Below, piece by piece: positions 44,019 to 56,427 of a stretch of 64,000 nt of DNA (its first letter is position 1; each line of letters begins with the position of its first letter). The notes below the pieces were generated by a model that saw only the letters and a list, made by a program, of their open reading frames with translations, had not been told where the DNA came from and searched no databases. The DNA is from Candidatus Levybacteria bacterium RIFCSPHIGHO2_01_FULL_38_26 (GTDB lineage Bacteria > Patescibacteriota > Microgenomatia > Levybacterales > UBA12049), in the NCBI GenBank assembly GCA_001782075.1, contig MFNO01000013.1, positions 48,608-112,607 of the forward strand, written 5' to 3'. Both the position numbers and the translations under genes were made by a program.

Positions 44019-44777
44019 GTGGATAAAAATAAAATAGAATTGCATTCTCCAACTAAAATATTAAGAAAGTACACTTTTTTATTTGCAAAAGTTCTTCGCG
44101 ATTTGCGGATCTCTCCGGATGCATTAATAGCAGGAAGGTTGTTAATTTTTGGTTTGGGATCGGCTTATTTATTTTACATCGGGACCTATGTATCCAATAT
44201 GCTGGCCGTTTTATTTTTATTTACAAATTTTTTCCTTGGTTTGATTGGTGAAGATTTAGCTAGAAACTTCAATCTAAAAACTAAGTTGAGCGAATTTTTG
44301 GATGCAAATTCACACTATTTTATTAACAGTATAATTATTATCTCGATAACTATCTATATGTTTCAAGTAGAGCATCCGCTTAGATTTATAGGCCTTTTTG
44401 CTTTTTTTGGCCACTCTTTTTCTGTAAAAATATTTACATTTTTAAAATCAACGTTTCTGATATCGGTTATTTCAGAAAATGCCAAAATGGAAAAGTTTTT
44501 TTTGCAAAACAAACCGGATTTAATAAGTATGTTGCTAAAGGAGCTTATGATTCCAAAAAATTTTGTTTTTTTTCTTTTCTCAAGCATACGCTATCATCTG
44601 ATTCTTGGTGCTTTGTTGGGAATAATGCCAATTATGATTTTGTTGTATGCGATAATGATTAATTTTCAATGGTTAACTTTGGTTGTTGCGCTTATTTACT
44701 ACTATAAATTTTATAACACTGAAAAAAGAATTATCTTTTTTAAAGCGTTAAAAGCACTTGAAGTAAAGGATAAGTAA
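44019..44777 (+). CDS. CDP-alcohol phosphotransferase-family membrane protein, degenerate paralog
   Basis: About 6 TM. GEDLARNF...LSEFLDANSHYF aligns to the active-site motif of the downstream gene, but with G->S and the final D->H. Confidence 0.5.
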   Translation: MDKNKIELHSPTKILRKYTFLFAKVLRDLRISPDALIAGRLLIFGLGSAYLFYIGTYVSNMLAVLFLFTNFFLGLIGEDLARNFNLKTKLSEFLDANSHYFINSIIIISITIYMFQVEHPLRFIGLFAFFGHSFSVKIFTFLKSTFLISVISENAKMEKFFLQNKPDLISMLLKELMIPKNFVFFLFSSIRYHLILGALLGIMPIMILLYAIMINFQWLTLVVALIYYYKFYNTEKRIIFFKALKALEVKDK

Positions 44778-44784
44778 AAGTAGT

Positions 44785-45558
44785 ATGAAAAAAAACTCAA
44801 ATCAAGAAAGACGTCTAGATTTTATAGCCAAAACATTGAAAAATCTTTCTGTGAATGTTGCTAGATTTCTAAATGGAATAGGTGTTACGCCCAATATGAT
44901 TACATCATTAAGATTATTAATAGGTGCTGGATCTTCTTATTTATTTTTTCTTCAGGGATATGTAACGGATTTGCTTGCCATTTTCTTTTTAGGCTTATTT
45001 TTTTTTCTTGATTTGGTGGACGGAGACTTGGCGAGAAAATTCAAAAAAACTTCCAAGCTGGGAGAATTTATGGACAGTTTTATAGACGCTGTTATAATTA
45101 ATTTGGTTTTGCTTGCAATTTATGGAAACCTAAATGCTGCAGCTAATCCTTTTAGTTATATTCCTGTAATAGCCATCATGGGACAAGGGCTGTCTGTTCT
45201 CATATCTCAAAACTATGAAGCTAAATTTGGCATATCGGGCTTGTCTTTAAATCCTAAGATACAATCTTATCGTAAGAACAATGACGTTGATGCTATTAGC
45301 AAATTTCTTTTTGAACTTTTGACACCGACAAATATCTTAACTTCACTTTTTTCCACATTAAAATATTATCTGATTGTTGGCGCGTTATTTAATATAATTC
45401 CTCTTGCGATAACAGCTTATGCCCTTATGATTAATTTAAGATGGATAATGCTTTCTTTTACATTAGCTTTATACTATAAGTACAACCAGCTTGTAAACAA
45501 AATCAATTTTTTTTATATTCTAAAAGCCTTAGAGCGCAATCGTCCACTTGTTATATAA
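44785..45558 (+). CDS. CDP-alcohol phosphotransferase-family membrane protein (intact motif)
   Basis: DLVDGDLARKFKKTSKLGEFMDSFIDAV is D-G-x2-A-R-x8-G-x3-D-x3-D; about 6 TM. Confidence 0.7.
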   Translation: MKKNSNQERRLDFIAKTLKNLSVNVARFLNGIGVTPNMITSLRLLIGAGSSYLFFLQGYVTDLLAIFFLGLFFFLDLVDGDLARKFKKTSKLGEFMDSFIDAVIINLVLLAIYGNLNAAANPFSYIPVIAIMGQGLSVLISQNYEAKFGISGLSLNPKIQSYRKNNDVDAISKFLFELLTPTNILTSLFSTLKYYLIVGALFNIIPLAITAYALMINLRWIMLSFTLALYYKYNQLVNKINFFYILKALERNRPLVI

Positions 45559-45601: not shown

Positions 45602-47989
45602 ATGTTTGAATCGAAAAAACTACCTGAAGCCTTTATAAGCAAAGCAGATACTTTACAAATATTGTCCGGTGTATTGAAAAAATCTTTAGTAGAAGATTTG
45701 TATGTTCTCTTGGAATCGGATTGGAAAAAAAATAAAACTGAGGTTGTAAGAAATATTAAGAATAGATTTAGGGGTAGAAACATAGTAGTTAGAAGTTCTG
45801 CATTAAATGAAGACACTAATCATTATTCAAATGCCGGGACCTTCAAAAGCATATTAAATGTAAATAGTTTGCATGAAGTTTCTATAGTTTCTGCTGTTGA
45901 AAGCGTCATAGGTTCTTATAAAAAAAAGGGTGCAGGAGATTCTAATAATCGCGTACTTGTTCAAACACAAACTATAGATGTATTATCTAGTGGGATAGTA
46001 TTAACAAGAGACTATAATGATTCTCCATACTATGTAATAAATTATTCAGATGGAAAAGATACAACGACTGTTGCAAGGGGTCTCTACAGTAAGACTTTGA
46101 AAATCTTAAAATCAGACCATGTAAATATTCCACTACGCTATAAAACTATAGTTAACGCTGTACGAGAAATAGAGGAGCTTGTTCCTAATATTGCCCTCAA
46201 TATTGAATACGCGCTTAAAAGCAATGGTCAAGTAGTTGTATTTCAAGTTAGACCATTGATTGTAGCTGGGGAAGAGCATTTAGTTAGTGACGTGGATGTT
46301 TTTGATAAAGTCGAGAGGTTAAAAACAAGGTTTAGGAAATTGTCTCAACCAACTCCTCATTTAGCCGGAAAAGTTACATATTTTGGTGATATGCCCGACT
46401 GGAATCCGGCAGAAATAATTGGAAGCTCGCCGCGCCGCTTGGCCTTTTCGTTGTATGCAGAGATTATTACTGATGATATTTGGCATAGAGCTAGAACAAG
46501 CCAAGGATATACTGATGTAAATCCGGCTAACCTTGTTGTAACATTTGGGAACAAACCTTATGTAGATATTAGAAATTCGTTTAACTCATTTATACCGGTT
46601 GGTTTAAGTCAACCCCTTAGGGAAAAACTAATAAATTTCTACCTAGAAAAATTAAAAAGAAATCCTCAGTTTCAAGATAAAGTAGAATTCGAGATCGTTT
46701 ATACGTGTTACGATCTAGCTTTCAATAAACGCTCAAAAGAACTACTAAAGTTCAATTTTTCAAAAGAGGAGATAGACCAAATAAGAACAGCATTGTTGCA
46801 TTTGACCAACAACCTTTTGAGTGCAGAGTCTATCCGTGCCGACCTAGGTCAAAATGAGGAGCTAGAAAAGTATAGAGAAGCTTTTCCTGCAGTAAAAAAA
46901 CAAGCGTCTCCTCAGGAAAGAGTAGAGAGGGCATTGAATTTGTTAGCAATGTGCAAGAAAATGGGAACCCTTCAATTTTCAAGATTGGCAAGACTGGCAT
47001 TTATTGGAAAAATACTGCTTAGAAGCTTGATAGACGAAGGCGCATTAGATTATATGAATTATTACAGATTTCTGGAATCAATTAACACAGTTACATCTAG
47101 TTTCTCAGCAGACATGGAAAAATTGAACAATGGAAATCTAAAAAAAACAGACTTTTTAAATAAATATGGCCATTTGCGGCCGGGAACGTATGACATAAGA
47201 GTTCCTCGGTATGATGCGCATGATTATTTTTCGTTAATAAAAGCTTCAAATAGCGAAGGTGAATTGGGCAAAAAAAAATTTATACTGGATACTGAAGGTT
47301 ATAGGAAAATATCATTTCTATTAAAAAAGCACGGGTTTAGAATAGATGCTAATGAGCTATTTCAGCTTACAAGATTTGCTTTAGAAGCAAGAGAATATTC
47401 AAAGTTTTTATTTACAAAGCCGCTGAGCGATGCTATGGAGCACATTGCCATTGCAGCAGAGGACTTAGGGTTTTTGCGAGAAGATATATCACATTTAGAT
47501 CTTGAGGCAATTAAGATGGCTAAAGATAAAGACGCGACATCTATTAAGGCGCAATGGGGTAAAAGGATCAATAAAAATAGAAAAGACTTTGTATCAAATA
47601 GCTGTATATCTTTGCCTCCTGTAATTTTTTCTGCAGAAGATTTCGATGTTATTTCTTATTATGATTCCCAGCCTAACTATGTGACAAATAAGAAAATTCA
47701 AGGCGATATAGTACTTTTGGACGGACAAGCAGACAAAAAAATTTCTGGGAAAGTAGTGCTTTTGGAAGCTGCAGATCCAGGTTATGATTGGATTTTTGCA
47801 AAGAAGCCGGCGGCTTTGATTACAAAATACGGAGGGACAGCATCTCATATGGTAGTGAGGTGCGCGGAGTTAGGGTTGCCGGCAGCAATTGGCCTGGGAG
47901 ATCATTTATACGAATTGTTATTGAATGCAAATTCTATTATGATTGATTGCGAAAATCAAAAAATTGAATTGAAAGGTATGGTTAGTTAA
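45602..47989 (+). CDS. PEP-synthase/PPDK-like ATP-grasp + phospho-His swivel-domain kinase (candidate L-glutamine kinase, Cj1418-like)
   Basis: 795 aa. C-terminal PEP-utilising mobile domain YGGTASHMVVRCAELGLPAAIGLG, with the His about 58 residues from the C-terminus. There is no PEP-binding TIM-barrel domain. Confidence 0.7.
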   Translation: MFESKKLPEAFISKADTLQILSGVLKKSLVEDLYVLLESDWKKNKTEVVRNIKNRFRGRNIVVRSSALNEDTNHYSNAGTFKSILNVNSLHEVSIVSAVESVIGSYKKKGAGDSNNRVLVQTQTIDVLSSGIVLTRDYNDSPYYVINYSDGKDTTTVARGLYSKTLKILKSDHVNIPLRYKTIVNAVREIEELVPNIALNIEYALKSNGQVVVFQVRPLIVAGEEHLVSDVDVFDKVERLKTRFRKLSQPTPHLAGKVTYFGDMPDWNPAEIIGSSPRRLAFSLYAEIITDDIWHRARTSQGYTDVNPANLVVTFGNKPYVDIRNSFNSFIPVGLSQPLREKLINFYLEKLKRNPQFQDKVEFEIVYTCYDLAFNKRSKELLKFNFSKEEIDQIRTALLHLTNNLLSAESIRADLGQNEELEKYREAFPAVKKQASPQERVERALNLLAMCKKMGTLQFSRLARLAFIGKILLRSLIDEGALDYMNYYRFLESINTVTSSFSADMEKLNNGNLKKTDFLNKYGHLRPGTYDIRVPRYDAHDYFSLIKASNSEGELGKKKFILDTEGYRKISFLLKKHGFRIDANELFQLTRFALEAREYSKFLFTKPLSDAMEHIAIAAEDLGFLREDISHLDLEAIKMAKDKDATSIKAQWGKRINKNRKDFVSNSCISLPPVIFSAEDFDVISYYDSQPNYVTNKKIQGDIVLLDGQADKKISGKVVLLEAADPGYDWIFAKKPAALITKYGGTASHMVVRCAELGLPAAIGLGDHLYELLLNANSIMIDCENQKIELKGMVS

Positions 47990-47990
47990 G

Positions 47991-48692
47991 ATGCTGGTTG
48001 CGATATCGCAAAGAAATTTATATTTAAAAAAATACGGATCAGTAGATATGCTGGAAACAGCATATGTAAGATTATTTAGTGGTTTTGGCATCGATCTAGT
48101 TCAGATGCCCAACATTGGTAAGGATATAAAAAGATATATACAACAAATTTCTGTTGAAGGAATAATATTAAGCGGTGGAGGTGACGTTGATCCTTCACTT
48201 TATGGAGGAGATTCTACTAATCCAGGTGATTACTCTTTAGACAGGGATGAGACTGAAAAGTCATTGCTTGAAACTGCGCTTGTAAAAGACATACCGGTTT
48301 TAGGTATTTGCAGAGGAATGCAAGTAATTAATGTTTATTTTAATGGCAAATTACTGCAGGATATGAAAGCAGAAATAAATAATAAAATAGATCATGTAGG
48401 CAAGAAACATAAAGTGACAGTATCAATGGAATCAATAGTGGATGCATTAGGGACAAATACTGTAGAAGTGAATTCTTACCATAATCAAGGTATTGCCAAA
48501 GCTCAGCTGTCTGAAGATTTGGTTTCTTTTGCAAATGCTCAGGATCAAACAATTGAGGCTGTATATCATCCAGGGCGTTCAATTGCCGCTGTTATGTGGC
48601 ATCCTGAACGATCTAATCCTCCTACTTTTTTGGACAAGCTATTGATTAAATCATTTGTTGTCAGGGAGGCATTTTGGAGAAAGCGAAAGTGA
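47991..48692 (+). CDS. Class-I glutamine amidotransferase / peptidase-C26 gamma-glutamyl hydrolase (Cj1417-like)
   Basis: GICRGMQVIN (nucleophile Cys) and MWHPER (catalytic His/Glu). Confidence 0.8.
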   Translation: MLVAISQRNLYLKKYGSVDMLETAYVRLFSGFGIDLVQMPNIGKDIKRYIQQISVEGIILSGGGDVDPSLYGGDSTNPGDYSLDRDETEKSLLETALVKDIPVLGICRGMQVINVYFNGKLLQDMKAEINNKIDHVGKKHKVTVSMESIVDALGTNTVEVNSYHNQGIAKAQLSEDLVSFANAQDQTIEAVYHPGRSIAAVMWHPERSNPPTFLDKLLIKSFVVREAFWRKRK

Positions 48693-49474
48693 GAGCTATC
48701 ATTTTAGCAGCAGGGGAAGGTAAAAGATTAAGACCATACACAGAAGATCTTCCTAAAGGGATGTTGAAATTTGATGGCAAAGCATTAATTGAAAGACAAA
48801 TAAGCCTTTTTCAAGATAATGGTATCTATGATATTTGTATAGTTACAGGTCATCTGGCGGACAGAATTAAATATTCTAACATACGCTACTTTCATAACCC
48901 CAATTATGAGCAAACAAATATGGTAGAATCCCTCTTTTGTGCAAGGACGGTGTTGTTTGGAGAAATAGTAATATCTTACGCGGATATTGTTTTTGAAAAG
49001 AGAGTTTTGCGTCGTGTATTAGAAAGCAAAGCAGACGTAGGAGTAACGGTTGATACGTCTTGGAAGGAGTATTGGCTAATGCGGCATGAGGATGCAAATA
49101 TAGACATAGAAAGCTTAAAACTGCATAAAAAGGGAGGAATAATAGAGATAGGAAAACTTGAGAAATCAGCAGAAAACATAGATGGAAGATATGTAGGTTT
49201 ATTAAAATTTTCACCACGAGGGATTAAAAAACTAGTATCGGTTTATGACAAAGCTAAATCTATTTTTTGGAATAAATCTTGGCAAACCTCCGGCAGCTTC
49301 CAGAAGGCGTACATGACAGATTTGCTGCAGGCTTTAATAGATGACGGTCAGGAAATTAATGCGATAAAAATTCAGCACGGCTGGTTAGAGGTTGATACGG
49401 CAAGAGATTATGAGCAGGTGATCAGGCTTAAGAGAGAAAATATGTTAAAGAAATTTTTCAATCCTGAGGCTTAA
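48674..49474 (+). CDS. LicC-like sugar/phospho-headgroup cytidylyltransferase (Cj1416-like nucleotidyltransferase)
   Basis: AIILAAGEGKRLRPYT...PKGML, with a LicC/CTP-transferase-like length of 266 aa. Confidence 0.7.
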   Translation: MEKAKVRAIILAAGEGKRLRPYTEDLPKGMLKFDGKALIERQISLFQDNGIYDICIVTGHLADRIKYSNIRYFHNPNYEQTNMVESLFCARTVLFGEIVISYADIVFEKRVLRRVLESKADVGVTVDTSWKEYWLMRHEDANIDIESLKLHKKGGIIEIGKLEKSAENIDGRYVGLLKFSPRGIKKLVSVYDKAKSIFWNKSWQTSGSFQKAYMTDLLQALIDDGQEINAIKIQHGWLEVDTARDYEQVIRLKRENMLKKFFNPEA

Positions 49475-49495
49475 ATTAGACAAGAATAAATTTTT

Positions 49496-50035
49496 ATGGT
49501 TACTATAGTTTTTGAGTCACATGCAACAAGCTTTGATAATGAAAATCATGTTGTTTCAGGCTGGAATGATGTGGAATTATCTCCATTGGGCGTGCAGCAG
49601 GCAAAAGATTTAGGAAAGCGAAGGGAAAATGAAAAGTTTGTTGCAATCTTCTGTTCGGATCTTCAGCGATCTTATAAAACGGCCATAATAGCTTTTGGAA
49701 ACAAATCTCCAATTATTCAAGATTTTAGATTGAGAGAGTGTGATTATGGTGATTTAACGCAACGACCCAGTAGTTTAATAGATAATGAAAAACTTAATCG
49801 GATAACAAACCCTTTTCCCAATGGAGAAAGCTATACGCAAGCATCTGAAAGAATAAAGGAGTTTTTAGAAGATTTGATAAAAAACCATGAAGGTAAGAAA
49901 GTGATGATTATCGGACACAAGGCAACGCAATATGGATTAGAGCATTGGATAAAAAAAGAGTCCCTGGAAAAGGTTATTGCAGCTCATTGGAAATGGCAGC
50001 CCGGGTGGACTTATGAGCTTAGAGCTTTTCGCTGA
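49496..50035 (+). CDS. Histidine-phosphatase-superfamily (PGM-like) protein with an atypical catalytic motif
   Basis: FESHATS...GW replaces the canonical RHGE(T/S): the catalytic His is kept and the Arg becomes Ser. A second His lies in IIGHKAT. Confidence 0.6.
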   Translation: MVTIVFESHATSFDNENHVVSGWNDVELSPLGVQQAKDLGKRRENEKFVAIFCSDLQRSYKTAIIAFGNKSPIIQDFRLRECDYGDLTQRPSSLIDNEKLNRITNPFPNGESYTQASERIKEFLEDLIKNHEGKKVMIIGHKATQYGLEHWIKKESLEKVIAAHWKWQPGWTYELRAFR

Positions 50036-50036
50036 T

Positions 50037-50753
50037 ATGCAGCATGCATCGGTAGTAAAATTATTTAAAGAACAAATAGGTCATTATTCAAGCAGAGATC
50101 AGGCTGTTGATTCTAAAATTGTCTCACTTTTTAAAGGTTGGGTAAGAAAAGATAAAGTTAATAAACACTTAGAAATTTGTGAGTTTGGTGGTGGAGCAGG
50201 ACAATTACTTAGTCAACTTAGGGAAAATTACCACAATGCAAGCTTCACTAATGCAGAAATAGTAGAAGATTATAAAAAAAAACTAGTATCGGATAAGATA
50301 AAATTTGTCAAAACTTCAATTATTAAATCTGTGTTTACAGATAAATCATTTGACGTTTTGATTGCTAGGGATGTATTCCATCACTTAATTGGAAAAAGTT
50401 ATGATGAAACGGTCAAAAATCAAATAACTGCGCTTAATGAATTGAAACGCCTGCTTCGTCCTGGTGGAGTAATTTTCATTGAGGAGCTTACGATGATTGC
50501 AGAAATAACTTCGCGTGCTATTTATACTCTTTCAAGCTTTAACGCAAGATTGGGATTACGTTTACCGTTTATTAATATAAGCACAAATACAGTTGTTGCT
50601 TTTTTAACAAAAGATAAGCTGATAAGATTTTGTAAGCAGGTTTTTGTAAAAGAAAAAATTTACATAACGAAGATTAATATCAAGAATGATTTCAAGTCAA
50701 GGATTCTACGCCTGGGAAATAAGGCAGATAAAATAATAGTAACTATTCAATAG
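50037..50753 (+). CDS. Class I SAM-dependent methyltransferase
   Basis: ICEFGGGAGQLL, then RLLRPGGVIFIEE. The start was placed at MQHAS, just after the upstream stop; the track ORF starts at 49977. Confidence 0.65.
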   Translation: MQHASVVKLFKEQIGHYSSRDQAVDSKIVSLFKGWVRKDKVNKHLEICEFGGGAGQLLSQLRENYHNASFTNAEIVEDYKKKLVSDKIKFVKTSIIKSVFTDKSFDVLIARDVFHHLIGKSYDETVKNQITALNELKRLLRPGGVIFIEELTMIAEITSRAIYTLSSFNARLGLRLPFINISTNTVVAFLTKDKLIRFCKQVFVKEKIYITKINIKNDFKSRILRLGNKADKIIVTIQ

Positions 50754-52116: not shown

Positions 52117-53811
52117 ATGCGAAAGTCTTTTCTTTCTATAATACTTTTTTTAATAATACTTTTAGCTTATTGGGATCTACCAAAAACTTTTTTTCAGCAA
52201 GATGAATGGCAAAGCTTAGCGGCCGCTATTTATTACCAAAGTATAAGTTTTTCCGGAATAGTGCAATCTTTTTTGCCTTCAGATGCTATTTCTCATTTTA
52301 ACCCCTTGGCAAAAATATATGAATGGTTTACGTTCTTATTTTTTTATACTAATTTTGAGTTTTATGCCTGGTTGAGTATTGGTGTGCACGCAATAAATAC
52401 ATTTCTACTTTACTATTTCGTTTTATTGACATTTCAGAACAGAAAACTTGCATTTTTTGCCGCTATTTTATTTGGTGTAAACAGTATAGCAAGCCAGGCG
52501 GTAACCTGGGTCGCCGCTATAAACAGCTATGAAATCCCTACAGTTTTTATACTCCTATCGTTAATATTTTTCCATCGTTTTCTTAGACAAAAAGAACATC
52601 GGAATAGAAATGTGCTGTTTTCTTTTTCTTTGCTTTTTATTTCACTTTTGTTTCACGAAATTGGCATTTTTCTCCTCATTTTCTATCCCTTAATATTCTT
52701 TTTATACACCAAGTCCGAATGGAGAAAATTATTCCCTGCTCTTCTTTACAGCTTGCTGCTTTTCATTTTTGCCTTTTTTCTTATTAGAGTTCCTTTTTTC
52801 TTTGGATTTACAACTACTCTTCCGGTAGTAACAGATATTTCTCGTCCTTCTGTAACAGTTTATCCTTACCGGTTGGTTTCTATAGCAATGAAGTCCTTTG
52901 CAGGGAGTCTGATTCCCGAGAGAACTCTTATTGAAATTTCGCAAAGTGTTGTCTATCTTGGCTATCCTCAATATTTAACGGCAGATAATCTTCCAAATCC
53001 TTTTATTACTCAATCAATTGTCTTTGATTTAACCTCTTACATGTTTACCGTAATTATTGTCTGTATAATAATTTTTTGCATAAAACTGACTCGAGATAAG
53101 AAACTTAAAGACGCGCTTTTTTGGGCACTGCTTTTTGTCCCAGCCAGTTTAATTCCGTATGGTTTTGTCTTGGGAAAAGCAGGATACGCGTCTATACTTG
53201 AACCTAAATTTTTTTATGTCGGTAGTATTGGAATAAGCATACTTGTTGCAGCTGCTGCATATTCTTTGCTTATTAAATTTTCAAAACAAAAGATACTAAA
53301 AACTATTGTTTATCTTTTGCTGGGATTATATTTTGTACACCATCTTATGGCAGTAAAAACTAATTCAAATAATTTAGTGGAAATAGGAACACAGAGAAAA
53401 GAATTTCTTACAAATATTAAATCTTCTTATAAAAAACTTCCACAAAATGCTGTATTTTTTACCCAAAGCGATACTGCTTATTACGGTATGCCAGATGATG
53501 AAAGAATTCTGCCCGTGCAGATCGGTTTTGGCAAGATGCTTATGATATGGTATCAAAAAGACGAGCGATTTCCGGGATGTTTGTATGAAGGACAATTTTT
53601 ATTGCCGTTATTGGAAGAAGGTTATCGAAGCTGTGGTGGTCGCGGCTTTGGGTATTTTAGAAATTATGATAAACTTATAGACACAATTAAAACGAACAAT
53701 ATTAAGGTAGAAAGTGTGATTGCTTATTCATGGAATGGAAAAAGTGAAAAACTTGAAGACATCACGAGTGAAATACGGACAAGAATAAAAATAGATCTTG
53801 AAAATAAATAA
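52117..53811 (+). CDS. GT-C membrane glycosyltransferase (ArnT/PMT-like)
   Basis: WDLPKTFFQQDEWQSLA (DE motif) and a C-terminal soluble domain YYGMPDDERILP...GYRSCGGRGFGYFR. Confidence 0.65.
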   Translation: MRKSFLSIILFLIILLAYWDLPKTFFQQDEWQSLAAAIYYQSISFSGIVQSFLPSDAISHFNPLAKIYEWFTFLFFYTNFEFYAWLSIGVHAINTFLLYYFVLLTFQNRKLAFFAAILFGVNSIASQAVTWVAAINSYEIPTVFILLSLIFFHRFLRQKEHRNRNVLFSFSLLFISLLFHEIGIFLLIFYPLIFFLYTKSEWRKLFPALLYSLLLFIFAFFLIRVPFFFGFTTTLPVVTDISRPSVTVYPYRLVSIAMKSFAGSLIPERTLIEISQSVVYLGYPQYLTADNLPNPFITQSIVFDLTSYMFTVIIVCIIIFCIKLTRDKKLKDALFWALLFVPASLIPYGFVLGKAGYASILEPKFFYVGSIGISILVAAAAYSLLIKFSKQKILKTIVYLLLGLYFVHHLMAVKTNSNNLVEIGTQRKEFLTNIKSSYKKLPQNAVFFTQSDTAYYGMPDDERILPVQIGFGKMLMIWYQKDERFPGCLYEGQFLLPLLEEGYRSCGGRGFGYFRNYDKLIDTIKTNNIKVESVIAYSWNGKSEKLEDITSEIRTRIKIDLENK

Positions 53812-54745
53812 CATGAAATTATCTCACAAAAAAATAGTTGTAACCGGTGGTGGTGGGTTTTTAGGAAAATATGTTGTTCAGAGATTAAAGAAAGAAGGCG
53901 CTTCTGACATTTTTTCTCCCCTATCGAAAGAATATGACCTCAGAAATAGGGAAGTTTGTAGGAAAATAGTGAAAAATGCGGATATAGTTATCCACTTAGC
54001 TGCGCAAATAGGCGGAATAGGTTTTATAGGAGAGCACATGGGTGAGGTATTTTATAACAATATAGTTATGGGGGTTGAGCTTATGGAAGCGTCACGACTT
54101 GCAGGCGTTGAGAAATTTGTGAGTGTTGGTACTGTTTGCGAATATCCTAAAAGTCCGCCAGTCCCTTTTCGAGAAGAAGATTTGTGGGAAGGATATCCTG
54201 AAGAAACTACTTCTTCCTACGGTTGGGCTAAAAAAGTGCTTATCGTTCAAGGGAAAGCGTATAAAAAACAATACAATTTTAATGCCATACATCTGCTTCC
54301 TGTTAATTTATATGGTCCACATGATAATTTTGATAGAACATCAAGTCACGTTATTCCAGCTCTTGTTAAGAGAGTTATTGAGGCAAAAGAAAAAAAGAAA
54401 CCTTATGTTAAGATTTGGGGAACAGGAACTGCTACGCGAGAGTTTCTGTATGTCCAGGATGCAGCCGAGGGAATAGTCTTGGCAACAAAAAAGTATGATT
54501 CTACTGAGCCAGTTAATTTGGGAACAGGTGTTGAGACTTTTATCAAAGATCTTGTCAAAATTATTGCCGAACTTACAGGGTATCATGGAGAAATAAAATG
54601 GGACGCTACAAAGCCAGATGGCCAGCCGAGAAGGAGACTTGATGTATCAAAAGCAAAAAAAGAATTTGGTTTTTCAGCAAAAACCTCCCTCAAAAAGGGA
54701 CTTAGAGCTACAATTGAATGGTATCAACGGTATAGAACTATATGA
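53798..54745 (+). CDS. fcl: GDP-L-fucose synthase (GDP-4-keto-6-deoxymannose 3,5-epimerase/4-reductase)
   Basis: VVTGGGGFLGKY, LAAQIGGIG and NLYGPHDNFDRTSSHVIPALV are GMER signature regions. Confidence 0.8.
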   Translation: MKINNMKLSHKKIVVTGGGGFLGKYVVQRLKKEGASDIFSPLSKEYDLRNREVCRKIVKNADIVIHLAAQIGGIGFIGEHMGEVFYNNIVMGVELMEASRLAGVEKFVSVGTVCEYPKSPPVPFREEDLWEGYPEETTSSYGWAKKVLIVQGKAYKKQYNFNAIHLLPVNLYGPHDNFDRTSSHVIPALVKRVIEAKEKKKPYVKIWGTGTATREFLYVQDAAEGIVLATKKYDSTEPVNLGTGVETFIKDLVKIIAELTGYHGEIKWDATKPDGQPRRRLDVSKAKKEFGFSAKTSLKKGLRATIEWYQRYRTI

Positions 54746-56427
54746 TTTTTTTTCTAGTTGTTGCTTATGTAGCTCTCGGGTTTTTGGCATTTGGAAAGCT
54801 TCCGTTTACATTTTTCCAACAGGATGAGTGGGCTATTTTTGGAAATTATATCTATTGGGAAAAAGCCAGTCTCGGCTGGTGGGAAAGACTGTTTATTTAC
54901 GAACAAGATACTCATATTATTCCGTTCTCGAATCTCTTTTCTTTTTTGCAATTTAAGGCTTTTGGATTGAATTTTTTTTATTACGGAATTTCAAGTATTC
55001 TTCTTCATATTATTAATGCAATTCTTGTATATGTACTTTCGACTATTATAACCAACAAAAAAAGCGTTGGATATATCGCGGGTGCTGTATTTTTGATTAG
55101 CTCAGTAACACATCAAGCAGTCACATGGGTTGCTACAAGTCCCGGAACGTTAGGCGCGACATTCTTTACAATTCTTTCCCTTATTTTTTTCTTTAAATTC
55201 ATGCAGTCAAATACCAAAAAAGTCAGTGGTTTATTACTAGTACTTCTTCTTTTGATTGCTTCTTTGTTTTTCAAAGAAACTAGTGTTTTTTTATTTGGTT
55301 TGATACCGGTATTGTGGTTAATCCTGGGTGGAGCAAGGAAAGAGAAGCATCCTAAAGCCCTTTTTTTTGTATTTTGTTTCTTCGTGACTTTTTATATACT
55401 TTTTAGACTCTTTATTTTGTTTTTTGGATATGAGTCTACTTCAGACCCCCAATATATTTCGCAGCCGACTGATATAGCTGCTTATGCCTTTAGAATTCCG
55501 ACAGTACCACTGAAGTTTATCGCACAAAGTATAATTCCCCAATCAACGTTAATATCAATAGGAAACACTCTAGTAGAGATTGCCTATCCTCAATTTGCGC
55601 AGCAAGGCGCACCAGATCCATATATCTCTCAAACCATTGCTGTTGATATAATCTCTTATTTATCTTCAATCATATTTTTGATGTTTTTCTTTGTAGTTTA
55701 CAGGTTCCATAAACGACTTAAGAAAGAAAAACTGGCAAAAGCGATCTTGGTATCTTTTGTAGGAATAGTTTTGAGTTCTCTTCCATTTGTTCTTATTCCT
55801 GGCAAGGCGGGTTATTTTTCACTGATTGACGGAAGACATCTTTATCTTTCTAATGTGTTTTTATCTATCGCTCTTTCTACTGTTTTATATGGTTTGTATA
55901 GGTGGATTCCAAAGCGACAGATAACAATTCCAGTGTTTATTCTTATTCTTATGGCAATAGTAATATTTAATATTCGTTTAATAAGAAGAGATTTAAATGT
56001 GCAAGTCGGCAATGGAATAATTCGTACATCCATACTGCATACAATCTCCAATACATACCCCACGTTGTCCTCGCGTGTAGTTTTTTACACACAGGCAGAC
56101 AAGTCCTATTATGGTTTACCAGAGGAAGAAAAAATTCTTCCATTCCAATCTGGGTTTGGTCAGACGCTTTTGGTTTGGTATAATAGCAAAGGAGAGAATT
56201 TCCCCTCATGTTTTTTTAAGGAAAAATATTTGTATGTATTACTTGAGGAGGGATATAGAGAGTGTGAGGGGAGGGGTTTTGGGTATTTTAGGAAAATGAA
56301 TTCATTAAAAAAAGCAGTGATTGAATACGGAATACCGGTTGAAAGTATTGTTGCTTTTTCCTACGATTCGTCTTCAAATAAACTTACCGATATATCTGAT
56401 CGCGTACGCAGTTTGATAACAAAATGA
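54742..56427 (+). CDS. GT-C membrane glycosyltransferase, paralog of 52117..53811
   Basis: FGKLPFTFFQQDEWAIF and a C-terminal domain YYGLPEEEKILP...GYRECEGRGFGYFR colinear with the paralog. Confidence 0.65.
   Translation: MIFFLVVAYVALGFLAFGKLPFTFFQQDEWAIFGNYIYWEKASLGWWERLFIYEQDTHIIPFSNLFSFLQFKAFGLNFFYYGISSILLHIINAILVYVLSTIITNKKSVGYIAGAVFLISSVTHQAVTWVATSPGTLGATFFTILSLIFFFKFMQSNTKKVSGLLLVLLLLIASLFFKETSVFLFGLIPVLWLILGGARKEKHPKALFFVFCFFVTFYILFRLFILFFGYESTSDPQYISQPTDIAAYAFRIPTVPLKFIAQSIIPQSTLISIGNTLVEIAYPQFAQQGAPDPYISQTIAVDIISYLSSIIFLMFFFVVYRFHKRLKKEKLAKAILVSFVGIVLSSLPFVLIPGKAGYFSLIDGRHLYLSNVFLSIALSTVLYGLYRWIPKRQITIPVFILILMAIVIFNIRLIRRDLNVQVGNGIIRTSILHTISNTYPTLSSRVVFYTQADKSYYGLPEEEKILPFQSGFGQTLLVWYNSKGENFPSCFFKEKYLYVLLEEGYRECEGRGFGYFRKMNSLKKAVIEYGIPVESIVAFSYDSSSNKLTDISDRVRSLITK

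What the first reader, a model, noticed from the sequence alone, without database searches (positions are those of the whole stretch)
45602..50753. Cassette that recapitulates the O-methyl-phosphoramidate (MeOPN) biosynthesis chemistry known from Campylobacter jejuni, embedded in a non-Campylobacter glycan locus
Three consecutive co-oriented genes encode a 795-aa PEPS/PPDK-like enzyme, a class-I GATase/C26 hydrolase and a LicC-like cytidylyltransferase. The 795-aa enzyme has an ATP-grasp N-terminus and a C-terminal phospho-His swivel domain (GGTASHMVVRCAELGLPA) but no PEP-binding barrel. The hydrolase carries GICRG and HPE. From established knowledge, this trio and order is the C. jejuni pathway: Cj1418 (L-glutamine kinase, a PPDK/rifampin-phosphotransferase homolog that phosphorylates the glutamine amide N through a phospho-His), then Cj1417 (gamma-glutamyl-CDP-amidate hydrolase, a C26/GATase1 fold), then Cj1416 (CTP:phosphoglutamine cytidylyltransferase, LicC-like). 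Those three genes are also contiguous in C. jejuni. A SAM methyltransferase follows at 50037..50753, analogous to the MeOPN O-methyltransferases Cj1419/Cj1420. Together this predicts that the organism decorates a surface glycan with a phosphoramidate, possibly methylated, which to my knowledge has not been described outside Campylobacter-like organisms.
Basis: partly seen in the sequence, partly recalled or inferred. Interest (0 to 1): 0.9.

Follow-up and report, generated by a model that had tools for sequence, protein, structure and literature searches.

The report
Phosphoramidate-donor gene cassette in a Levybacteria glycan locus
An uncultured Levybacteria (CPR) genome carries the same kinase, hydrolase and cytidylyltransferase trio that Campylobacter uses to make the nitrogen-phosphorus donor for its capsule, but the trio turns out to be widespread in bacteria and archaea, and here it is paired with different downstream genes.

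Summary
Co-oriented, tightly packed genes at 45602-50753 encode:
- A: a 795-aa three-domain kinase (ATP-grasp, helical centre, His-swivel; no PEP barrel).
- B: a C26 amidohydrolase.
- C: a LicC/PntC-like cytidylyltransferase.
- E: a class I methyltransferase.

The homology reading is largely supported.
- A is a full-length member of NCBIfam NF004508 (848 bits, cut-off 501).
- B's best family is gamma-glutamyl-CDP-amidate hydrolase, though below its cut-off.
- IMG names homologues "glutamine kinase" and "L-glutamine-phosphate cytidylyltransferase".
- Both B and C lie near A in 64 of 80 other loci, usually in that order.

The novelty claim is not supported.
- The kinase family has about 1,500 clusters at 50% identity, spread over many phyla.
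- A Borg preprint already predicts such a cluster.
- Phosphoramide is chemically known in Xanthomonas and Shewanella LPS.

The new element is the downstream half.
- There is no Cj1415-like kinase in the 64 kb.
- Instead the locus has an intact CDP-alcohol phosphotransferase, from a family that lies within 3 kb of the cassette in 22 of 80 loci.
- It also has a conserved atypical His phosphatase.

I could not compare directly with the C. jejuni proteins.

The parts
44019..44777 (+). F1: 252-aa multi-pass membrane protein, a degenerate paralogue of a CDP-alcohol phosphotransferase. Probably non-catalytic.
   Evidence: It has no Pfam hit and only a weak NCBIfam hit to archaetidylinositol-phosphate synthase. 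It matches a profile built from its own family at 179 bits. It lacks the D..DG..AR signature carried by the 40 other full-length members; one 160-aa fragment also lacks it.
44785..45558 (+). F2: 257-aa CDP-alcohol phosphotransferase with an intact catalytic motif. Candidate transferase that uses the cytidine-nucleotide donor.
   Evidence: PF01066 at 57.8 bits. The motif DLVDGDLARKFKKTSKLGEFMDSFID is intact. The closest solved structures are AF2299 and IPCT/DIPPS, which use soluble CDP-alcohols. The same family lies within 3 kb of the A-C block in 22 of 80 loci. A 41%-identical homologue sits next to a cytidylyltransferase-PEP-mutase fusion.
45602..47989 (+). A: 795-aa three-domain kinase (ATP-grasp, helical substrate domain, phospho-His swivel with H749). 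Predicted L-glutamine kinase.
   Evidence: NF004508 at 847.7 bits against a cut-off of 501, full length. Model pLDDT 87.5. Best PDB fold match is full-length rifampin phosphotransferase, E 6e-20. Homologues 47-49% identical are named 'glutamine kinase' by IMG. There are 1,501 clusters at 50% identity with E <= 1e-30.
47991..48692 (+). B: 233-aa Peptidase_C26 / class I GATase-fold amidohydrolase. Predicted gamma-glutamyl-CDP-amidate hydrolase.
   Evidence: PF07722 at 142 bits. Best NCBIfam is NF045546 GCDPHdlase at 104 bits, E 7.7e-30, below the cut-off of 250. The triad C107/H204/E206 is conserved in 99-100% of 72 relatives. B follows A in 72 of 80 loci.
48674..49474 (+). C: 266-aa LicC/PntC-like cytidylyltransferase. 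Predicted CTP:phosphoglutamine cytidylyltransferase.
   Evidence: LicC (1jyk) is the best PDB sequence hit at 63.7 bits. Model pLDDT 95; the best fold matches are PntC (TM 0.76) and LicC. Homologues 47-50% identical are named 'L-glutamine-phosphate cytidylyltransferase' by IMG. Relatives scoring 118-265 bits lie in 66 of 80 loci.
49496..50035 (+). D: 179-aa histidine phosphatase (branch 1) with S-H-A in place of the R-H-G motif. Role unresolved. It occupies the position that cj1415 holds in C. jejuni.
   Evidence: PF00300 at 105 bits. The alignment to PGM/PhoE structures shows the Arg before the catalytic His replaced by Ser. A 299-bit ortholog with the same E-S-H motif lies about 1.2 kb downstream of C in the A-B-C cassette of a close relative, L093.
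50037..50753 (+). E: 238-aa class I SAM-dependent methyltransferase. Candidate O-methyltransferase of the phosphoramidate.
   Evidence: Methyltransf_11 at 47.7 bits. Its ATG lies 1 nt after the stop of D. No specific relative was found in the other loci. A class I methyltransferase of some kind lies within 3 kb of the cassette in about 30 of 80 loci.

Best explanation
Genes A, B and C make cytidine diphosphoramidate by the route established in C. jejuni.
1. [quoted passage not shown]
2. C condenses N-phospho-L-glutamine with CTP to give CDP-L-glutamine.
3. B hydrolyses the gamma-glutamyl amide, leaving CDP-NH2 and glutamate.

These steps are inferred from homology, conserved catalytic residues and conserved gene order. 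They are not shown biochemically.

The downstream steps are inferred from context only.
- The membrane-embedded CDP-alcohol phosphotransferase F2, perhaps with its degenerate paralogue F1, transfers the phosphoramidate from the cytidine nucleotide to a hydroxyl of a membrane-associated glycan or lipid intermediate, releasing CMP. The acceptor would be a product of the surrounding 64-kb glycosylation island.
- Methyltransferase E may then O-methylate the phosphoramidate.
- The atypical His phosphatase D is a conserved partner in this lineage, but its step is unknown. It could dephosphorylate a phosphorylated acceptor or product, as in PgsA/Pgp-type pairs. It could instead remove the 3'-phosphate of a nucleotide by-product, if a 3'-kinase is encoded elsewhere.
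For: Kinase A:
- NF004508 at 848 bits over the full length, against 41 bits or less for PEP synthase models and 23 bits for the rifampin phosphotransferase model.
- The predicted structure has the three-domain rifampin-phosphotransferase-like architecture without a PEP barrel.
- H749 is invariant within the invariant G-G-x-A-S-H motif (GGTASH in A).
- IMG names homologues 'glutamine kinase'.

Hydrolase B:
- Its best NCBIfam is gamma-glutamyl-CDP-amidate hydrolase.
- The Cys-His-Glu triad is conserved in 99-100% of 72 relatives.

Cytidylyltransferase C:
- It is closest to LicC and PntC, which are cytidylyltransferases for small phospho or phosphono head groups.
- IMG names homologues 'L-glutamine-phosphate cytidylyltransferase'.

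Linkage of the trio:
- Both B and C lie near A in 64 of 80 loci from many phyla, usually in that order.
- The order matches cj1418, cj1417, cj1416, cj1415.
- About 30% of loci also carry an APS-kinase-like gene of the PRK05541 type. Some kinases are fused to cytidylyltransferase or APS-kinase domains.

Transferase F2:
- Its catalytic motif is intact.
- Its nearest solved relatives use soluble CDP-alcohols.
- The family lies within 3 kb of the cassette in 22 of 80 loci, directly adjacent to it in Scalindua, an Omnitrophota MAG and Dehalococcoidia.
- TagF-like CDP-glycerol-type transferases take that place in Vibrio and Balneolaceae.
- An F2 homologue neighbours a phosphonate-activating cytidylyltransferase.

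Phosphatase D:
- An ortholog accompanies the cassette in a close relative.

Operon-like packing:
- Gaps run from -19 to +43 nt between F2 and E.
Against: - I could not compare directly with Cj1418, Cj1417 or Cj1416. None has a solved structure, the AlphaFold library was unavailable, and Campylobacter was not retrieved.
- That NF004508 contains Cj1418 is my recollection, not a result obtained here.
- B scores below the curated equivalog cut-off (104 against 250).
- No Cj1415-like kinase lies in the 64 kb, although C. jejuni needs one.
- CDP-alcohol phosphotransferases co-occur with APS-kinase-like genes in several loci. They are therefore not simply an alternative to the 3'-phosphorylated donor.
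- The specific relatives of F2 are few, and one lies in a locus with no visible cassette.
- E has no specific relatives next to other cassettes.
- Almost every gene from 35.8 to 50.7 kb is on the same strand, so co-orientation alone is weak evidence.
- Close relatives of A also occur outside glycan loci.
Confidence: 0.6

Rival explanations
1. The locus runs the canonical Campylobacter-type route with parts encoded elsewhere. A, B and C make CDP-amidate. A 3'-kinase outside the window converts it to 3'-phospho-CDP-amidate. An unidentified transferase, not F2, decorates the glycan. D recycles the 3',5'-cytidine bisphosphate by-product, as CysQ recycles PAP. F1 and F2 belong to another branch of the glycan or lipid pathway.
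For: - In the closest relatives the cassette is accompanied by a 167-aa P-loop kinase-like gene together with the ortholog of D.
- On the Azospirillum plasmid an APS-kinase fusion, sulfotransferase-like genes and a His phosphatase all surround A-B-C.
- APS-kinase-like genes lie within 3 kb of the cassette in 24 of 80 loci.
Against: - There is no P-loop protein anywhere in the 64 kb.
- The window has no sulfotransferase-like or U415-like candidate transferase.
- F2 abuts A.
- D lacks the Arg of the RHG phosphate pocket.
- D is not detectably related to the Azospirillum phosphatase beyond the superfamily level.
Confidence: 0.2
2. C, F2 and D, with or without E, form an ordinary CDP-alcohol module that adds a phospho-polyol or phospho-amino-alcohol head group. 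This would be a cytidylyltransferase, a CDP-alcohol phosphotransferase acting on a phosphorylated acceptor, and a phosphatase, as in DIP or PG/PI synthesis or in C. difficile FtaABCD. A and B would serve another purpose.
For: - C and F2 both hit the bifunctional IPCT/DIPPS model, with E 8.6e-14 and 9e-12.
- The best F2 hits are inositol-phosphate-type synthases whose products need a phosphatase.
- CDP-threonine chemistry in C. difficile shows that such modules exist.
Against: - Specific relatives of C (118-265 bits) are found near A and B in 64 of 80 loci, whether or not a CDP-alcohol transferase is present.
- All IPCT/DIPPS scores are far below the cut-off of 580.
- No inositol-1-phosphate synthase or glycerol-3-phosphate-type gene was seen in the window.
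Confidence: 0.1
3. A is a PEP synthase/PPDK or an antibiotic (rifamycin-type) phosphotransferase, and the clustering with B and C is fortuitous.
For: A shares the ATP-grasp and swivel domains with these enzymes, and its best solved fold match is rifampin phosphotransferase.
Against: - Identity to the rifampin phosphotransferase is only 14-16%.
- NF041857 scores 23 bits against a cut-off of 999, and PEP synthase models score 41 bits or less against cut-offs of 598 to 1063.
- There is no PEP-binding domain.
- Both B and C lie near A in 64 of 80 loci.
Confidence: 0.02

Closest known systems
C. jejuni O-methyl phosphoramidate (MeOPN) pathway: Cj1418 L-glutamine kinase, Cj1416 CTP:phosphoglutamine cytidylyltransferase, Cj1417 gamma-glutamyl-CDP-amidate hydrolase, Cj1415 cytidine diphosphoramidate 3'-kinase, Cj1419/1420 methyltransferases, Cj1421/1422 transferases
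   Same: The three enzyme types are the same, contiguous and in the same order (kinase, hydrolase, cytidylyltransferase). The swivel His and the Cys-His-Glu triad are conserved. A SAM methyltransferase is nearby, and the setting is a surface-glycan locus.
   Different: There is no Cj1415-like kinase in the 64 kb. A His phosphatase sits in its position. Two CDP-alcohol-phosphotransferase paralogues are adjacent. The organism is a CPR bacterium. B scores below the curated cut-off of the Campylobacter-based model. I could not compare the methyltransferase or any transferase with the Campylobacter proteins.
C. difficile FtaABCD Type A flagellin glycan modification (CDP-threonine, then CDP-N-methylthreonine, then phosphotransfer to GlcNAc)
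   Same: The logic matches: make a phospho-head group, activate it with CTP using a LicC-like enzyme, methylate it with a SAM enzyme, and transfer the phospho-head group from the CDP donor to a glycan with release of CMP.
   Different: The head group differs (threonine, not amidate). The first enzyme differs (HAD-type FtaA, not a swivel-His kinase). The transferase differs (soluble TagF-like FtaD, not membrane PF01066). A TagF-like gene does follow A-B-C in Vibrio alfacsensis and Balneolaceae.
CDP-alcohol phosphotransferases that use soluble CDP-alcohols (AF2299; IPCT/DIPPS of Archaeoglobus)
   Same: F2 has the full DxxDGxxARx8GxxxDxxxD motif, and these are its best solved relatives.
   Different: Similarity is low (41 bits). 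The donor and acceptor of F2 are unknown. No member of the family is known to transfer a phosphoramidate.
Rifampin phosphotransferase (RPH-Lm) and PEP synthase/PPDK
   Same: They share the ATP-grasp and phospho-His swivel mechanism. The overall three-domain layout matches RPH.
   Different: Identity is 14-16%. The central domain differs and there is no PEP barrel. Family-model scores are far below the cut-offs.
Phosphonate-tailoring cytidylyltransferase PntC and phosphocholine cytidylyltransferase LicC
   Same: These are the best structural neighbours of C (TM 0.70-0.76). All activate small phospho or phosphono head groups with CTP.
   Different: Identity is 20-25%. C belongs to a distinct clade that travels with the kinase and the hydrolase.

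Membership tests
Cytidine diphosphoramidate / MeOPN pathway (C. jejuni Cj1415-Cj1422) | Cj1418-type L-glutamine kinase: about 780-800 aa with an ATP-grasp, a central domain and a phospho-His swivel domain, and no PEP-binding domain | tested here: met
   NF004508 at 848 bits (cut-off 501) over the full length. The three-domain model agrees. H749 is invariant. IMG names homologues 'glutamine kinase'. Caveat: no pairwise comparison with Cj1418 itself was possible, and that NF004508 covers Cj1418 is recalled, not shown.
Cytidine diphosphoramidate / MeOPN pathway (C. jejuni Cj1415-Cj1422) | Cj1417-type gamma-glutamyl-CDP-amidate hydrolase (C26/GATase1 fold, Cys-His-Glu triad) | tested here: inconclusive
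   NF045546 is the best family (104 bits, E 7.7e-30, covering almost the whole model) but below the equivalog cut-off of 250. Relatives from Aeromonas and Leptospira score the same, 92-108 bits. The triad is conserved in 99-100% of relatives.
Cytidine diphosphoramidate / MeOPN pathway (C. jejuni Cj1415-Cj1422) | Cj1416-type LicC-like CTP:phosphoglutamine cytidylyltransferase | tested here: inconclusive
   The LicC/PntC-like fold and sequence are confirmed. IMG names homologues 47-50% identical 'L-glutamine-phosphate cytidylyltransferase'. No curated model matched and no Cj1416 sequence was at hand. Substrate specificity is not testable here.
Cytidine diphosphoramidate / MeOPN pathway (C. jejuni Cj1415-Cj1422) | Contiguous gene order kinase, hydrolase, cytidylyltransferase | tested here: met
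   Shown. Both B and C lie near A in 64 of 80 other loci.
Cytidine diphosphoramidate / MeOPN pathway (C. jejuni Cj1415-Cj1422) | Cj1415-type (APS-kinase-like) cytidine diphosphoramidate 3'-kinase | tested here: not met
   The 64-kb window has no homologue of the APS-kinase-like genes found next to other cassettes and no Walker-A protein. The rest of the genome was not searched.
Cytidine diphosphoramidate / MeOPN pathway (C. jejuni Cj1415-Cj1422) | Cj1419/Cj1420-type methyltransferase and Cj1421/Cj1422-type phosphoramidate transferases | not tested
   No reference sequences were available. E is a generic Methyltransf_11 protein, and no relative of it was found next to other cassettes.
Cytidine diphosphoramidate / MeOPN pathway (C. 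jejuni Cj1415-Cj1422) | A P-N (phosphoramidate) group on a surface glycan | not testable with these tools
   This needs 31P/15N NMR or MS of material from an uncultured organism.
CDP-alcohol phosphotransferase (PF01066) | Signature DxxDGxxARx8GxxxDxxxD in a multi-pass membrane protein | tested here: met
   F2 has DLVDGDLARKFKKTSKLGEFMDSFID and scores 57.8 bits on PF01066. F1 does not meet it: the signature is absent and it has no Pfam hit.
Histidine phosphatase superfamily, branch 1 (PF00300) | RHG catalytic motif, second Arg, Glu and second His | tested here: inconclusive
   D scores 105 bits on PF00300. The catalytic His, and by inspection of the sequence the downstream LQRS, RLRE and IGH elements, are present. 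The Arg of RHG is Ser (E-S-H-A), and the ortholog in L093 has the same change.
PEP synthase / pyruvate phosphate dikinase | C-terminal PEP/pyruvate-binding TIM-barrel domain, and family models above their cut-offs | tested here: not met
   Pfam finds no PEP-binding domain. The best PEP synthase model scores 41 bits against cut-offs of 598 to 1063. The structural match to 2ols covers only about 240 columns.
Rifamycin-inactivating phosphotransferase (RPH) | NF041857 or NF000283 above the cut-off | tested here: not met
   NF041857 scores 23 bits against a cut-off of 999. The fold architecture is shared at 14-16% identity.

The most novel reading that the evidence does not exclude
In this CPR bacterium, and in the many DPANN, Planctomycetota and Dehalococcoidia loci with the same neighbour, a membrane CDP-alcohol phosphotransferase uses cytidine diphosphoramidate or CDP-glutamine directly. 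It would install a phosphoramidate on an envelope glycan or lipid without the 3'-phosphorylation step that Campylobacter needs. This would be a new donor class for the PF01066 family and the first P-N surface decoration in CPR organisms. An atypical Ser-His histidine phosphatase would be an obligate partner.
Probability: 0.3. Interest if true: 0.75.

Novelty: new variant of a known kind. Interest (0 to 1): 0.55.

Why it matters
- Phosphoramidate decoration of surface glycans has been treated as a Campylobacter speciality, and its transfer step has never been reconstituted to my knowledge.
- The donor-making trio turns out to be a large, mostly mis-annotated family. NCBI and UniRef records label its members 'PEP-utilizing enzyme', 'phosphoenolpyruvate synthase', 'gamma-glutamyl-GABA hydrolase family' or 'phosphocholine cytidylyltransferase family'.
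- The family spans CPR, DPANN and many cultured bacteria and archaea. P-N chemistry on cell envelopes may therefore be common.
- The varying partners give concrete candidates for the missing transferases. These partners are the APS-kinase plus sulfotransferase-like set, CDP-alcohol phosphotransferases, TagF-like enzymes and a membrane SGNH-like family.
- Cultured carriers such as Aeromonas sanarellii, Leptospira ilyithenensis, Haloferax elongans, Azospirillum lipoferum and Vibrio alfacsensis make this testable.

Tried and rejected
1. Obtaining the C. jejuni proteins for a direct comparison failed.
   - No solved structures exist for them.
   - The Raushel-laboratory papers are not held.
   - The genome scan used the patterns DMPDWNP and QDKVEF and returned no Campylobacter.
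   - The afdb50 library was unavailable.
   - Ten representatives of the right length turned out to be environmental sequences.
2. Viral contigs hold no relative of the kinase.
3. The promoter and terminator scan of 41-53 kb was no better than shuffles and did not define transcription units.
4. The search for F2 homologues gave only two non-identical hits. One lies in a glycan-modification context with no visible cassette, on a short contig. The other lies next to a phosphonate gene.
5. I considered that K-type kinases and CDP-alcohol transferases might be mutually exclusive alternatives. I rejected this because both occur together in Scalindua, an Omnitrophota MAG, Dehalococcoidia and some DPANN loci.
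6. I considered that D might be related to the His phosphatases of the other CPR cassettes or of Azospirillum. No relation is detectable beyond the superfamily level.
7. A literature search found no paper linking genes to the Xanthomonas or Shewanella phosphoramide.

Full report
**Source and setting**

The window comes from an uncultured Candidatus Levybacteria (CPR/Microgenomates) MAG. The 795-aa protein is 100% identical to NCBI 'hypothetical protein A2687_01785'. The whole 64 kb has about 35% GC. It is a nearly unidirectional glycosylation island of GT1, GT2 and GT-C/PMT_2-like transferases, epimerases, aminotransferases and methyltransferases.

**Observation**

- A is 45602-47989, 795 aa.
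- B is 47991-48692, 233 aa.
- C is 48674-49474, 266 aa. Its TTG start follows a GGAGG by 5 nt.
- E is 50037-50753, 238 aa. Its ATG lies 1 nt after the preceding stop.

Pfam finds only PPDK_N and the PEP-utilizers swivel domain in A. It finds Peptidase_C26 above GATase in B, NTP_transf_3 and NTP_transferase in C, and Methyltransf_11 in E.

- D (49496-50035) is a 179-aa His_Phos_1 protein between C and E.
- F1 (44019-44777) and F2 (44785-45558) are two CDP-alcohol-phosphotransferase-like membrane proteins. They end 43 nt before A.

**What the proteins are**

A matches NCBIfam NF004508 (PRK05849, still named 'hypothetical protein') end to end at 848 bits, against a cut-off of 501. PEP synthase models reach 41 bits or less, and the rifamycin phosphotransferase model reaches 23 bits. 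Homologues from Aeromonas, Leptospira and Haloferax score 821-887 bits on the same model.

The AlphaFold model of A has pLDDT 87.5 and pTM 0.87. It shows an ATP-grasp, an all-helical central domain and a C-terminal swivel domain. The only full-length matches in the PDB are Listeria rifampin phosphotransferase structures (E 6e-20, 14-16% identity). All other hits cover the ATP-grasp or swivel parts only. H749, in the invariant G-G-x-A-S-H motif (GGTASH in A), is invariant in 39 homologues.

B's best NCBIfam is NF045546, gamma-glutamyl-CDP-amidate hydrolase (104 bits, E 7.7e-30). That is well ahead of PuuD (54 bits) and the TrpG/GuaA types, but below the equivalog cut-off of 250. The relatives in Aeromonas and Leptospira score the same, 92-108 bits, so the model is simply narrow. 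C107, H204 and E206 are conserved in 99-100% of 72 relatives.

C's best solved sequence relative is LicC (63.7 bits). Its model (pLDDT 95) is closest to the phosphonate cytidylyltransferase PntC and to LicC. RmlA and GlmU rank lower.

IMG labels proteins 47-49% identical to A as 'glutamine kinase'. It labels proteins 47-50% identical to C as 'L-glutamine-phosphate cytidylyltransferase'. NCBI and UniRef records give only generic or wrong names.

**Conservation of the trio**

A scan of one genome per species returned 79 loci carrying the kinase. They come from:
- CPR: Levybacteria, Taylorbacteria, Saccharimonadales.
- Archaea: Woese-, Nano- and Pacearchaeota, Altiarchaeales, Haloferax elongans.
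- Other bacteria: Omnitrophota, Scalindua and other Planctomycetota, Bacteroidota/Balneolaceae, Dehalococcoidia, Leptospira ilyithenensis, Aeromonas sanarellii, Microbispora, Alteromonadaceae and Rhodospirillales.

Plasmids of Azospirillum, Vibrio, Cupriavidus and Agrobacterium also carry it.

Searching the window proteins against all ORFs of these loci finds B in 72 of 80, C in 66 of 80 and both in 64 of 80. They are almost always immediately downstream of A in that order. The order equals cj1418, cj1417, cj1416, cj1415 in C. jejuni.

An exhaustive HMMER search counts 1,501 clusters at 50% identity with E <= 1e-30. Many kinases are fused to a PF01467 or LicC-like cytidylyltransferase domain. 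A few are also fused to an APS-kinase domain.

These data make a conserved function for the trio very likely. A glutamine-amide-cleaving hydrolase always sitting beside the kinase points to glutamine as the nitrogen donor.

**What differs here**

APS-kinase-like genes (best NCBIfam PRK05541) lie within 3 kb of the cassette in 24 of 80 loci. The window has none, and no Walker-A protein of any kind.

Other recurrent neighbours within 3 kb of the cassette are:

| Neighbour family | Loci of 80 |
|---|---|
| CDP-alcohol phosphotransferases | 22 |
| Membrane-anchored protein of about 415 aa, weakly SGNH-like | 20 |
| Class I methyltransferases | about 30 |
| TagF-like transferases | 6 |
| Sulfotransferase-like proteins | 6 |

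The CDP-alcohol phosphotransferases all carry D..DG..AR.

F2 has the complete catalytic signature, and F1 has lost it. F2's nearest solved relatives, AF2299 and IPCT/DIPPS, use soluble CDP-alcohols. In Scalindua, an Omnitrophota MAG and Dehalococcoidia a family member lies directly beside the cassette. One of the only two close F2 homologues lies next to a cytidylyltransferase-PEP-mutase fusion, which is phosphonate activation.

D is a His phosphatase in which the Arg of the RHG motif is Ser. A 299-bit ortholog with the same E-S-H motif accompanies the A-B-C cassette of a relative whose kinase is 64% identical. There it sits beside a 167-aa P-loop protein and an HD-like protein that the window lacks.

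Other CPR relatives carry a different arrangement: A, B, an AAA_18 kinase, another type of His phosphatase, then an unknown protein of about 420 aa. They have no C nearby and are not in glycan loci.

**Mechanism proposed**

Steps 1-3 are inferred from homology and conserved gene order.
1. A converts L-Gln and ATP to N-phospho-L-Gln through phospho-His749.
2. C adds CMP from CTP to give CDP-L-Gln.
3. B releases glutamate to leave cytidine diphosphoramidate.

Steps 4-6 are inferred from context only.
4. F2 transfers the phosphoramidate to a hydroxyl of a membrane-associated glycan or lipid intermediate and releases CMP. This is the reaction type of its family.
5. E methylates the product.
6. D acts at an unknown step.

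The main rival keeps steps 1-3. It assumes a 3'-kinase elsewhere in the genome, has D recycle the 3'-phosphonucleotide by-product, and invokes a transferase other than F2. The co-occurrence of K-type kinases with CDP-alcohol transferases in some loci keeps this rival open.

**Comparison with what is known**

The core is a member of the C. jejuni cytidine-diphosphoramidate pathway type. The downstream half resembles CDP-head-group transfer systems such as C. difficile FtaABCD.

The claim that nothing like this is described outside Campylobacter does not hold.
- A Borg preprint predicts a Cj1416-1418-like cluster.
- IMG annotates such genes with the pathway names.
- Unmethylated phosphoramide is chemically established in Xanthomonas campestris LOS and Shewanella MR-4 LPS.
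- In the literature I could search, no paper links genes to those structures or reports the wide distribution found here.

**Limits**

- I could not compare with the Campylobacter proteins themselves.
- That NF004508 includes Cj1418, and that His-737 is its phosphorylated residue, are from my own knowledge.
- Only 64 kb of the genome was inspected for the missing kinase.

**Verdict**

The cassette is real and its core was read correctly. It is not unique to Campylobacter-like organisms. It is a new variant in its downstream genes. Interest is moderate, at 0.55.

Noticed in passing
window 44019-44777 (F1) compared with 44785-45558 (F2): These are tandem paralogues of a CDP-alcohol phosphotransferase. 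F2 keeps the full DxxDGxxARx8GxxxDxxxD motif. F1 has lost it (…GLIGEDLARNFNLKTKLSEFLDANSH…), which suggests a catalytic plus non-catalytic pair.
   Followed up: partly
window 49496-50035 (D); L093 6906-7445: This His_Phos_1 protein has E-S-H-A instead of the canonical R-H-G. The same substitution is present in its 299-bit ortholog next to another A-B-C cassette, so it is a conserved subfamily trait and not a defect.
   Followed up: partly
L004, L007, L071, L088 (and L086): A second CPR arrangement exists: kinase, C26 hydrolase, AAA_18 nucleotide-kinase-like protein, another type of His phosphatase, then an unknown protein of about 420 aa. No LicC-like cytidylyltransferase is nearby and the loci are not glycan loci. 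In L086 the first three genes, followed by a Metallophos gene, sit among SIR2_2, NB-ARC, NYN and AAA_15 genes that look like a defence island.
   Followed up: partly
L093 5682-6833, L087 10656-11819, L094 7278-8432: In the closest relatives of A, a 167-aa P-loop (thymidylate-kinase-like) protein and a 211-215-aa HD-like protein lie convergent to A-B-C. They are candidates for a non-orthologous replacement of the Cj1415 kinase. Both are absent from the window.
   Followed up: partly
L006 10385-11632, L005 4966-6243, L040 8717-9976 and about 17 other loci: A family of about 415 aa with an N-terminal membrane anchor has no Pfam hit above threshold and only weak SGNH/GDSL similarity. It abuts the kinase gene in 20 of 80 loci across archaea, Planctomycetota, Omnitrophota and Microbispora. 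It is a candidate phosphoramidate-handling enzyme. The window has none.
   Followed up: partly
P0029-P0120; L089 8347-11334; L056 9272-12418; P0065, P0076: The kinase is often fused. DPANN archaea have an N-terminal PF01467 cytidylyltransferase domain. Vibrio, Haloferax and Balneolaceae have an N-terminal LicC-like NTP-transferase domain. A few proteins also carry an APS-kinase domain. Separate C-type genes are usually still present, so the role of the second cytidylyltransferase domain is unexplained.
   Followed up: no
L090 (Azospirillum lipoferum 4B plasmid AZO_p6) and L089 (Vibrio alfacsensis plasmid): Two cultured bacteria carry the cassette on plasmids with contrasting partners. Azospirillum has an APS-kinase fusion, a methyltransferase, two sulfotransferase-domain proteins and a His phosphatase. 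Vibrio has a TagF-like CDP-glycerol glycerophosphotransferase. PGAP gives all the core genes generic names.
   Followed up: partly
window 52117-53811 and 54742-56427: These are two paralogous multi-pass membrane proteins of about 560 aa with no Pfam hit. They share an N-terminal FFQQDEW motif and a C-terminal GYR.C.GRGFGYFR motif. They flank an epimerase just downstream of the cassette. They may be GT-C-like transferases or acceptor-handling enzymes.
   Followed up: no
window 1-64000: Almost the entire window is one glycosylation island on the + strand. It has about ten large GT-C/PMT_2-like membrane proteins and many GT1/GT2, epimerase and methyltransferase genes. This is unusually large for a small CPR genome.
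   Followed up: no
L092 1029-1853: A homologue 41% identical to F2 is followed by a PF01467 cytidylyltransferase fused to PEP mutase. This links the F2 subfamily to the transfer of CMP-activated phosphonate head groups.
   Followed up: partly
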